Positions 1,347-18,704 of a stretch of DNA of 39,378 nucleotides are shown one piece after another. The notes under the pieces were generated by a model. The model was not told the origin of the DNA and did no database searches. It saw nothing but the letters and a program-made list of their open reading frames with translations. The translations under genes were made by a program, and so were the position numbers. The stretch is from NCBI GenBank assembly GCA_016781885.1, contig JADDPM010000001.1, positions 1 to 39,378 on the forward strand. The letters are read 5' to 3'. The DNA comes from Rubrobacter sp. Lineage in GTDB: Bacteria; Actinomycetota; Rubrobacteria; Rubrobacterales; Rubrobacteraceae. Position 1 is the stretch's first letter, and each line of letters starts with the position of its first letter.

Positions 1347-1376
1347 CTCTCCGCCGGCCATCCGAGTGACCAGGTT

Positions 1377-1922
1377 TTACCCTTGCTCGCGCCTCCATAG
1401 CCCCTGGGACGGCACGCGCAGGGCGCGGTTGAACTTGCTGGAGGCGTTCTCCCAGGCGATTATCTCGGTGAGCTCGACCAGGGCGTCATCACCGTAGAAC
1501 CGCCGCAGGCGCGAGAAGAGTTCGTCGCTCACCTCGCGATCGGTGATCGTCATACAGTCGGCATACTCGAGAGCGACACGCTCCTTCTCGCTGTAGAGCG
1601 GGCTGGTAGCGTATTCCTCCAGGGCGAGTATCTTCTCCTCAGGTATCCCCAGTTCGCTGCCCACGGCAGCGTTGATATCCTGTCAGAAGACGCAGCCGTT
1701 GAGGGCGGCGACTCGGCGGTTTATCAAGGCTGTAAGCCTACCGTCAATGAGGCCCGAGGAGTCGAGCCCCGCCCACATCGCCCGAGCTCCTCGAAAGATC
1801 GAGGGCCGGCGCGCGTAGAGCAGGTGGTTCAGGAGAGGAGCGCCCCACTTCTTGGCCTGGGCCTCGAGCACGGCCCTGACGTACCCTTCAGCGTGGTCTG
1901 GATCTATACCCCCGATACGCAT
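1377..1922 (-). CDS. AhpD/carboxymuconolactone decarboxylase-fold (YnjA-like) redox protein, probable selenoprotein with C77-V-F-U80 (181 aa with UGA readthrough)
   Basis: ORFs 1683..1922 and 1377..1664 share a frame and are separated only by TGA (1685-1683): ...ALNGCVF*QDINAAVGSELG...SPLYSEKERVALEYAD...ELTEIIAWENASSKFNRAL; the TGA falls at the second Cys of the family CxxC; a hairpin follows. Confidence 0.85.
1640..1682 (-). promoter_or_regulatory. Candidate bacterial SECIS element
   Basis: Immediately 3' of the UGA: lower stem CAGG(A)UAUC/GAUACCUG; upper stem CGCUGCC/GGCAGCG (1671-1655) with a G-first apical loop GUG starting 18 nt after the UGA. Confidence 0.65.
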
Positions 1923-1972
1923 CGCGGGCCCGGCTCTTTTCGTGCCCGCGATTGATCTACCGGAAACGCCTG

Positions 1973-2236
1973 CTAGCTCTCGCTCCCAGCTCCAGAGAGA
2001 GCCTTGTCGAGGCGGCTGGTCTTGCGGGCCGCCTTGTTCTTGTGGATGATGCCCTTCGTGGCGGCCTTGTCGTAGGACTTCTGGGCCTCGTCGCGGAGCT
2101 GGGTCGCCCGCTCGGTGTCGCCAGACTGGAGGACCTTGTAAAAGTTTTTTGAGATGTTGCGAAGGTGAGTACGCACGGGCTTGTTCTGCTCGTGCTTCCT
2201 GATGCTCTGCTTGTCGCGCTTGGATGGTGCGGGCAC
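1973..2236 (-). CDS. rpsT: 30S ribosomal protein S20
   Basis: DKAATKGIIHKNKAARKTSRL motif; GTG start at 2236 preceded by GAGGAG; the upstream ATG at 2305 is unlikely. Confidence 0.95.
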   Translation of the reverse strand: MPAPSKRDKQSIRKHEQNKPVRTHLRNISKNFYKVLQSGDTERATQLRDEAQKSYDKAATKGIIHKNKAARKTSRLDKALSGAGSES

Positions 2237-18542: not shown

Positions 18543-18614
18543 TGCCCTGTAGCTCAATGGCAGAGCATCCGGCTGTTAACCGGAGGGTTGTAGGTTCGAG
18601 TCCTACCAGGGCAG
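18543..18614 (+). tRNA. tRNA-Asn(GTT), CCA not encoded
   Basis: Cloverleaf: acceptor TGCCCTG/CAGGGCA, anticodon stem TCCGG/CCGGA with GTT at 18575-18577, T loop TTCGAGT. Confidence 0.97.
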
Positions 18615-18630: not shown

Positions 18631-18704
18631 GGGCCCATAGCTCAGTTGGTTAGAGCATCCGACTCATAATCGGACGGTCCCAGGTTCGAGTCCTGGTGGG
18701 CCCA
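18631..18704 (+). tRNA. tRNA with CAT anticodon, most likely tRNA-Ile2 (lysidine)
   Basis: Acceptor GGGCCCA/TGGGCCC, CAT at 18665-18667; paired 1-72 and no three G:C pairs in the anticodon stem, so not initiator; Ile2 over elongator Met is by resemblance. Confidence 0.9.

What the first reader, a model, noticed from the sequence alone, without database searches (positions are those of the whole stretch)
1377..1922. Hidden selenoprotein: AhpD/YnjA-like oxidoreductase with a CxxU motif, split by ORF callers
Seen: the two minus-strand ORFs are one frame, AAC GGC TGC GTC TTC TGA CAG GAT ATC AAC (NGCVF*QDIN), giving 181 aa on readthrough, and both halves look intact. Known: AhpD/CMD proteins carry a CxxC here; from memory E. 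coli YnjA has CEFCVDI and a similar C-terminus. A TGA at a catalytic Cys position is the classic sign of selenocysteine, and AhpD-like selenoproteins have been reported. Inference: this is a Sec-containing YnjA-subfamily enzyme with N in place of the AhpD His after the motif. It would normally be annotated as a pseudogene or two fragments and may be undescribed in this lineage.
Basis: partly seen in the sequence, partly recalled or inferred. Interest (0 to 1): 0.85.

Follow-up and report, generated by a model that had tools for sequence, protein, structure and literature searches.

The report
Known AhpD-like (YciW-related) selenoprotein gene
The apparent stop codon in the middle of this small gene most likely encodes selenocysteine, giving one intact, predicted redox enzyme that gene callers cut in two, but it belongs to a selenoprotein family that is already catalogued, so the find is correct and ordinary.

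Summary
Confirmed: window 1922-1377 (-) is one 181-codon frame with one TGA (1683-1685) in C77-V-F-U80. Selenocysteine is strongly supported. TGA stands at this column in 87 of 87 close copies from several phyla. Selection after the TGA equals selection before it (dN/dS about 0.10). A hairpin that fits the bacterial SECIS model follows it and is conserved. The genome has selA, selB, selC and selD, and contigs of other runs show no other base at the codon. It is not new: the read-through protein scores 342 bits (cut-off 310) on NCBIfam NF053654 'YciW-related (seleno)protein', and AhpD-like CxxU selenoproteins have been in print since 2005. This scan reported the same family in three other genomes. 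The fold is AhpD-like, but the Glu/Tyr/His proton relay is replaced (A65, F79, N84), so it is not an AhpD in the strict sense. Most likely a stand-alone selenol/thiol reductase of peroxides or similar oxidants; substrate untested.

The parts
1377..1922 (-). Gene for a 181-aa YciW-related (AhpD/CMD-fold) selenoprotein, ATG to TAA
   Evidence: NF053654 342.2 bits against cut-off 310; PF02627 35.3 bits; model pLDDT 95, all-helical
1683..1685 (-). In-frame TGA, codon 80, predicted selenocysteine (second position of CxxU)
   Evidence: TGA in 87 of 87 close copies; aligns with Cys51 of PA0269 and the second Cys of Atu0492, Bmp8 and YnjA
1692..1694 (-). Cys77, first position of CxxU, predicted resolving thiol
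   Evidence: Cys in 87 of 87; aligns with Cys48 of PA0269
1656..1670 (-). Upper stem and apical loop of the predicted bacterial SECIS (5-bp stem, loop C-GUG-G, 17 nt after the UGA)
   Evidence: fold z -3.4 for 1635-1682; 99.5% of 390 cells paired in 78 distinct variants; fits the consensus in PMC13188914; lowest synonymous change in the gene
1640..1682 (-). Longer predicted hairpin that includes the SECIS upper stem; its lower stem was not tested for conservation and changes with the window folded
1671..1673 (-). Asn84, in place of the AhpD relay His (PA0269 His55, M. tuberculosis His137)
   Evidence: N in 87 of 87; alignment; residue roles from PMC3141380 passages
1728..1730 (-). Ala65, in place of the AhpD relay Glu (PA0269 Glu36)
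   Evidence: counted from the alignment; Ala in 84% of 87
1973..2236 (-). rpsT (S20), upstream neighbour on the same strand, stop 50 nt before the ATG; not a conserved partner
   Evidence: TIGR00029
420..1346 (+). holA (DNA polymerase III delta), convergent neighbour ending in TGA, 30 nt from the gene's stop; not a conserved partner
   Evidence: TIGR01128

Best explanation
This is one intact gene whose UGA is most likely read as selenocysteine, giving a member of the curated YciW-related (seleno)protein family NF053654 that is predicted to act as a stand-alone selenol/thiol oxidoreductase on the AhpD fold. Recoding (strongly supported, not shown at the bench): SelB carrying Sec-tRNA(UCA) would bind the hairpin 17 nt after the UGA and insert Sec at residue 80. 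Catalysis (inferred from AhpD, PA0269 and Bmp8): the U80 selenolate would attack an oxidant, most likely an organic or hydrogen peroxide, Cys77 would resolve it to a selenenyl-sulfide, and a cellular dithiol system would re-reduce it. The AhpD Glu-His relay is absent (shown); that the more acidic selenol makes it unnecessary is a guess. Confidence: about 0.97 for Sec, about 0.9 for a redox role of CxxU, about 0.5 for peroxide as the substrate.
For: Machinery in the same genome: selA 258 bits, selB 260 bits, selD 354 bits and itself with an in-frame TGA plus hairpin, tRNA-Sec 62.8 bits against 47 (also ARAGORN). TGA in 87 of 87 close copies at 68-82% identity, from records titled Rubrobacteraceae, Acidobacteriota, Chloroflexota, Methylomirabilota and Vulcanimicrobiota; each runs on 95-115 codons past the TGA (one ends at a contig edge). 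pN 0.184 before and 0.147 after the TGA; dN/dS 0.097 and 0.101. SECIS: codon 85 is GCT in 85 of 87, whereas GCT is a minority at invariant Ala codons outside the hairpin (20 of 87 at A72, 11 of 87 at A121 and A167); pS falls to 0.43 at codons 80-89 against a median of 0.71; pairing beats 500 of 500 shuffles and slid controls (17-62%). tRNA-Sec in 5 of 5 carrier genomes from other phyla; selA in 17 of 22 genus genomes and 8 of 8 near-complete ones. Family and fold.
Against: No direct evidence of Se incorporation, transcription or activity; the RNA runs laid held only short diverged pieces. dS is near saturation, so the ratios are rough. The stem also encodes AAVGS, so protein constraint inflates pairing; 5 of the 6 double changes come from one distant subfamily. 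A Cys motif plus hairpin alone is unspecific (33 of 10016 TGA sites passed a crude genome scan, most in apparent shadow frames). selA is interrupted by a run of N in the held sequence and selB is split over two contigs, so neither was read whole. The relay residues tied to AhpD peroxidase activity are missing, no AhpC-type peroxiredoxin was found with PF10417 in this 79%-complete genome, and no conserved partner gene points to a substrate. Relay loss does not track Sec: YnjA has Cys without His, and a second CxxU gene of this genome keeps His.
Confidence: 0.85

Rival explanations
1. Same selenoprotein, but it reduces a non-peroxide substrate, for example removing halogen from an aromatic compound as the AhpD-fold debrominase Bmp8 does, or reducing HOCl/HOSCN-type oxidants or disulfides.
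For: Best fold match is Bmp8 (TMq 0.85, E 7e-8) and it ranks second by sequence. The peroxidase relay is absent, while another set of polar residues is 99-100% conserved (H33, R38, R39, R47, N68, R69, R70, D82, W157, E158, N159, K163, N165). Bmp8 is proposed to debrominate through cysteine-to-disulfide oxidation (PMC5577590 passage).
Against: Identity to Bmp8 is only 20-21%, and other AhpD-like structures match almost as well (TMq 0.79-0.82). Bmp8 His88 and Asn170, recalled from memory as catalytic, align with I83 and S162. No halogenase or aromatic-catabolism gene stood out among the 25 commonest neighbour clusters, read by eye.
Confidence: 0.25
2. Adaptor role as in M. tuberculosis: the protein passes electrons from a lipoamide or thioredoxin system to an AhpC-type peroxiredoxin.
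For: Same fold and CxxC/U helix as AhpD; the role is described for M. tuberculosis AhpD (PMC3141380 passage).
Against: No ahpC beside the gene here, and none stood out among the commonest neighbour clusters of 87 loci; PF10417 found nothing in the own genome (79% complete); TIGR00778 score 13.6 against 27.8; M. tuberculosis AhpD is a distant fold match (TMq 0.52).
Confidence: 0.1
3. The TGA is a real stop: a pseudogene, a base-call error, or two separately made fragments (79 and 95 aa).
For: ORF callers give two ORFs; 74 of 120 listed database hits are C-terminal fragments, many starting at the GTG of codon 87; the G004 copy is broken into three frames.
Against: The same TGA in 87 of 87 copies across phyla; equal constraint on both halves, including codons 81-86 that lie before the supposed GTG start; a conserved hairpin; other assemblies agree.
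Confidence: 0.02
4. TGA is read as Trp (or Cys) through a changed genetic code, as the database translations with W suggest.
For: 29 of the 120 listed hits carry W at this column.
Against: The genome has RF2 (prfB 502 bits) and only tRNA-Trp(CCA); holA next door ends in TGA; 39 of 87 copies use TGA as their true stop too; no copy has TGG here. The W is most likely a gene caller's code choice on short contigs (inference).
Confidence: 0.01

Closest known systems
NCBIfam NF053654 GroundWater_YciW, 'YciW-related (seleno)protein' (equivalog, release 20.0)
   Same: 342.2 bits against cut-off 310, residues 2-178 on model 3-179; CxxU/CxxC; the family name already allows Sec.
   Different: Nothing of substance. 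This copy is from a Rubrobacteraceae-type soil genome and sits between rpsT and holA, a site not used in 19 congeners. No paper on the family was found.
AhpD-like selenoprotein (COG2128/YciW, CxxU) and CMD-like selenoprotein (PF02627, CxxU) of the Sargasso Sea and GOS surveys (PMC1088965, PMC2398784; reviews PMC9312934, PMC13188914; passages seen)
   Same: Same superfamily, same CxxU position and a downstream bSECIS; 27 and 299 sequences reported for AhpD-like.
   Different: Those are broad, mostly marine groups; the 2026 review ties 'AhpD-like' to TIGR01926, on which this protein scores 26 against 81.8. Their example sequences were not compared directly.
E. coli YnjA (b1753, NP_416267.1, AhpD-like domain protein)
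   Same: 39% identity over 119 aa, CEFC motif, no His four residues after the second Cys, similar C-terminal PxQGL end.
   Different: Cys not Sec; Thr not Asn at +4; no alignment over the first 58 residues; 101 bits on NF053654; lies in the ydjXYZ-ynjABCDE cluster, which is absent here.
AhpD of M. tuberculosis and PA0269 of P. aeruginosa (PMC3141380, abstract and passages seen)
   Same: All-helical fold with the two-helix CxxC motif (PA0269 rmsd 1.2-1.3 A over about 137 columns).
   Different: Three of five relay residues differ (Glu36 to A65, Tyr50 to F79, His55 to N84), Cys51 is Sec, and there is no ahpC linkage.
Bmp8 debrominase (PDB 6OHI/6OHJ)
   Same: Best structural match over the full length (TMq 0.84-0.85); CxxC at the same place.
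   Different: 20-21% identity; the residues recalled as catalytic (His88, Asn170) are not kept; no bmp-like cluster seen.

Membership tests
NF053654 YciW-related (seleno)protein | HMM score at or above the curated cut-off (310 bits) over the full model | tested here: met
   342.2 bits, 2-178 on 3-179 of 179, with U read as C; 336.5 bits from DNA with the TGA inside
NF053654 YciW-related (seleno)protein | Sec or Cys at the second position of the Cxx[CU] motif | tested here: met
   C77-V-F-TGA
Bacterial selenoprotein | In-frame UGA aligned with a conserved Cys of homologs | tested here: met
Bacterial selenoprotein | UGA kept in other organisms, with coding constraint on both sides | tested here: met
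   87 of 87; dN/dS about 0.10 on both sides
Bacterial selenoprotein | bSECIS: 3-9 nt loop, G in the first two loop positions followed by G/U, 16-37 nt from UGA, stem of 4 bp or more, MFE at most -7.5 | tested here: met
   loop CGUGG, 17 nt spacing, 5-7 bp stem, -18.5 kcal/mol; criteria from PMC13188914; conservation
Bacterial selenoprotein | selA, selB, selC, selD in the genome | tested here: met
   all over cut-off; selA has a run of N and selB spans two contigs
Bacterial selenoprotein | Selenium shown in the protein | not testable with these tools
   needs 75Se labelling or MS
AhpD in the strict sense (M. tuberculosis AhpD / PA0269 type) | Two-helix CxxC motif in an all-helical fold | tested here: met
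AhpD in the strict sense (M. tuberculosis AhpD / PA0269 type) | Proton relay Glu-Cys-His/Tyr-Cys-His | tested here: not met
   A65, C77, F79, U80, N84
AhpD in the strict sense (M. tuberculosis AhpD / PA0269 type) | TIGR00778 core-domain score at or above 27.8 | tested here: not met
   13.6 bits
AhpD in the strict sense (M. tuberculosis AhpD / PA0269 type) | Peroxidase or AhpC-reducing activity | not testable with these tools
   no ahpC neighbour seen; PF10417 not found in the 79%-complete genome
E. coli YnjA orthologs | Full-length similarity, same curated family and ydj/ynj gene cluster | tested here: not met
   aligns only over query 59-177; YnjA is below the NF053654 cut-off; cluster absent
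Bmp8-type debrominase | His and Asn catalytic residues beside the CxxC (His88, Asn170; recalled, paper not held) | tested here: inconclusive
   they align with I83 and S162, but their role rests on memory

The most novel reading that the evidence does not exclude
NF053654 is a nearly obligate soil selenoenzyme (TGA in 87 of 87 genome copies; one exact Cys-motif match in 241 million metagenome records) that has dropped the whole AhpD peroxidase relay and built another conserved active site, and it works as a selenocysteine-dependent reductive dehalogenase on the AhpD/Bmp8 fold, a bacterial counterpart of deiodinase chemistry spread across several soil phyla.
Probability: 0.07. Interest if true: 0.65.

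Novelty: new member of a known kind. Interest (0 to 1): 0.17.

Why it matters
As found, it corrects an annotation: a gene that callers split or translate with Trp is one selenoprotein, and it adds to the selenoproteome of an aerobic soil lineage whose genus carries up to three AhpD-fold CxxU families. The family is already curated, so a specialist would not be surprised. The open point worth bench time is its chemistry. The family is widespread, almost always Sec-coded and lacks the AhpD relay, and I found no activity for it in the papers searched. If it proved to be a dehalogenase or another non-peroxide reductase, that would be a new selenoenzyme activity in soil.

Tried and rejected
Pseudogene, base-call error and TGA=Trp: rejected (see rivals). 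Broken selA: the two Pfam pieces lie in different frames, but a run of N separates them, so no frameshift is shown. Operon partner: ORFs within 2.5 kb of 87 loci were clustered; the commonest neighbour occurs in 24 of 87, all in Acidobacteriota-type records, and the 25 top clusters were read by eye only. 'Sec makes the His dispensable' as a rule: not supported, since YnjA has Cys and no His, a second own CxxU gene keeps His, and the Cys sister clade has His in 4 proteins but Asn in L147. Direction of Sec/Cys change: the 105-row tree was only the quick one, with long-branch warnings and an unresolved base, so no order of events is claimed. Expression: RNA runs X19 and X20 held only short diverged pieces, no evidence either way. 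Promoter/terminator scan of 1200-2400: no promoter, no minus-strand terminator. Rfam found only two tRNAs in the window, no SECIS family hit. A crude genome-wide CxxU/UxxC-plus-hairpin scan was too unspecific to list the selenoproteome. Papers: no hit for ynjA+AhpD or Bmp8+debrominase; Haft and Tolstoy 2025 and the Bmp8 structure paper were not held, so whether they or their supplements discuss this family is unknown. The profile search over cluster representatives and the atlas look-up gave no result, so the wider Cys/Sec and His/Asn distribution is open.

Full report
Observation. The minus strand at 1922-1377 is one frame of 181 codons with a single internal TGA at codon 80 (1683-1685), in NGCVF*QDIN, ending in TAA. 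The ORF lister cuts it into 79 and 95 aa. The gene lies between rpsT (same strand, 50 nt upstream) and a convergent holA, before lepA-hrcA-dnaJ. Its GC (0.63; GC3 0.78) matches holA and the genome. Contigs from 4 other runs of 2 studies cover the codon and list no other letter or indel at it. These are contigs, not raw reads; run X1 may be the source and is not counted.

Machinery. The genome (79% complete) has selA, selB, selD and tRNA-Sec, all over their cut-offs. selD has its own in-frame TGA followed by a hairpin whose stem also starts at position 16. selA came as two pieces in different frames; a run of N separates them, so no break is shown, and selB follows selA directly and ends on the contig that carries selC. 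RF2 is present and the only tRNA-Trp is CCA, so TGA is not reassigned. selA was found in 17 of 22 genus genomes and 8 of 8 near-complete ones; G009, a 79%-complete carrier of the gene, had no match (the tally includes unpublished G008, G016, G019). tRNA-Sec was found in 5 of 5 carrier genomes chosen from other phyla.

Conservation. A scan of one genome per species confirmed 133 loci from a capped candidate list and kept the best 80; the other 53 were not seen. With 9 loci from the genus search and 2 duplicates dropped, 87 close copies remained, this one included. All 87 have TGA at the column, although one of the six search patterns asked for Cys there; all have C77 and N84 and run on 95-115 codons. 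Record titles name Rubrobacteraceae, Acidobacteriota (mostly Pyrinomonadaceae), Chloroflexota (Ktedonobacteria), Methylomirabilota/Rokubacteria and Vulcanimicrobiota; these are kin-rich samples, not independent draws. The window's copy groups with Rubrobacteraceae records (SH-aLRT 90, quick tree). Against the 86 others, pN is 0.184 before and 0.147 after the TGA, dN/dS 0.097 and 0.101, with dS near saturation. Cys forms are rare: an exact Cys-motif pattern gave 1 match in the metagenome collection, and 3 of 120 listed proteins have C-x-x-C with N84 (their DNA was not seen). In the genus, 9 of 22 genomes match NF053654 at E 1e-30 and 6 pass its cut-off.

SECIS. The 48 nt after the UGA fold at -18.5 kcal/mol, z -3.4, 0 of 200 shuffles as good; longer windows score less well (z -2.2 and -1.1). 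The upper stem GCUGC/GCAGC closes the loop CGUGG 17 nt after the UGA, which meets the four criteria given in PMC13188914 (passage and figure legend). In 78 distinct variants 99.5% of 390 cells pair, against 96.8% in shuffles (0 of 500 as high) and 17-62% in slid controls; 6 cells change on both sides, 5 of them in one distant subfamily (one of the 78 rows, L031, is from unpublished G019). Codon 85 is GCT in 85 of 87 copies, and codons 80-89 have the lowest synonymous change in the gene (0.43 against median 0.71). Caveats: the stem also encodes conserved residues, the structure was derived from this sequence, and a Cys motif plus hairpin alone is common by chance (33 of 10016 sites).

What it is. 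The read-through protein scores 342 bits on NF053654 'YciW-related (seleno)protein' (cut-off 310) and 35 bits on Pfam CMD, but is below cut-off on TIGR01926 and TIGR00778. The AlphaFold model (31-row alignment, U as C) is confident and all-helical (pLDDT 95). Its best matches are Bmp8 (TMq 0.85), uncharacterised peroxidase-related proteins (0.79-0.82), Atu0492 and PA0269 (rmsd 1.2-1.3 A); M. tuberculosis AhpD is distant (0.52). PMC3141380 (abstract and passages) names Glu36, Cys48, Tyr50, Cys51 and His55 as the PA0269 relay and calls both Cys and His55 invariant. These map to A65, C77, F79, U80 and N84, so the relay is gone. E. coli YnjA is 39% identical over 119 aa and also lacks the His (Thr) but is outside NF053654. 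No neighbour is conserved across lineages, and 0 of 19 congener rpsT loci hold the gene, 18 of them with holA in range (these include unpublished G005, G008, G012, G016, G019). It is a stand-alone gene at a variable site.

How it most likely works. Shown: frame, TGA, hairpin, machinery, conservation, family score, predicted fold, missing relay. Inferred: SelB-dependent Sec insertion; U80 as the reactive selenolate and C77 as the resolving thiol, by analogy with the sulfenic acid-to-disulfide cycle of AhpD (PMC4674687 passage; which Cys attacks in AhpD rests on my recall) and the disulfide-forming Bmp8 (PMC5577590 passage); re-reduction by a cellular dithiol. Peroxide is the most likely substrate at about even odds. 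Dehalogenation, other oxidants or an adaptor role remain open. That Sec replaces the need for the relay is only a guess, and two counter-examples were found.

Novelty. AhpD-like CxxU selenoproteins were reported in 2005 and 2008 (PMC1088965, PMC2398784; passages and tables) and are listed in the 2022 and 2026 reviews (passages). Rubrobacter xylanophilus is listed with 5 selenoproteins, not itemised in the passages seen (PMC1794560). NF053654 is not named in the main text of the 2026 review, and searches for selenoprotein+YciW, AhpD+CxxU, CMD/NCBIfam and soil-lineage terms found no paper on this family; Haft and Tolstoy 2025 was not held and no supplements were read. Three earlier reports of this scan reached the same verdict on other genomes; I had reached mine before reading them. 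Verdict: a correct call, a new member of a curated family, interest 0.17.

Noticed in passing
G000:C321:2-349 (+), locus L055; relatives L042, L043, L046, L047: A second AhpD-fold CxxU gene in the same genome (CAYU-LSVH), TIGR01926-like, keeping the relay His and with a similar hairpin; it passes TIGR00778 but no curated selenoprotein model.
   Followed up: partly
L030, L031 (unpublished G019), L032, L034, L050: A third CxxU subfamily in relatives (CPFU-LDIG, about 40% identical, 104-109 bits on NF053654 for the two scanned) with the same hairpin and a compensatory G-C to U-A pair; not found in the own genome with this query and over no curated cut-off.
   Followed up: partly
L147:324-857 (-): A Cys-coded (TGC) member of a 54%-identical sister clade keeps the stem GCUGC/GCAGC but has GCG in place of GUG in the loop, like a relic SECIS after Sec loss; other members of that clade have His at +4. 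Direction not established.
   Followed up: partly
G000:C90, + strand, near 2295: A glutaredoxin-like frame with PGU-MFC (UxxC) and a hairpin, a likely further selenoprotein; seen only in the crude scan.
   Followed up: no
L029 (G004:C1 2847483-2848020, -): The G004 copy keeps the TGA and hairpin but is split over three frames: a pseudogene or assembly indels. G014 carries two TGA copies and a further N-terminal fragment.
   Followed up: no
window 1347-1972; L153:1750-2470, L158:1750-2465: The rpsT-holA interval is a variable slot: about 110-180 nt in some congeners, 430-750 nt in others, where L153 and L158 hold what look like pieces of another, related-looking gene.
   Followed up: partly
protein database hits P0002-P0121: 29 of 120 listed homologs carry W at the Sec column (27 or more from one source) and 74 are C-terminal fragments, a systematic mis-annotation of this family.
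   Followed up: yes
window 18543-18614 and 18631-18704 (+): Two tRNA genes; no other Rfam match in the window.
   Followed up: no
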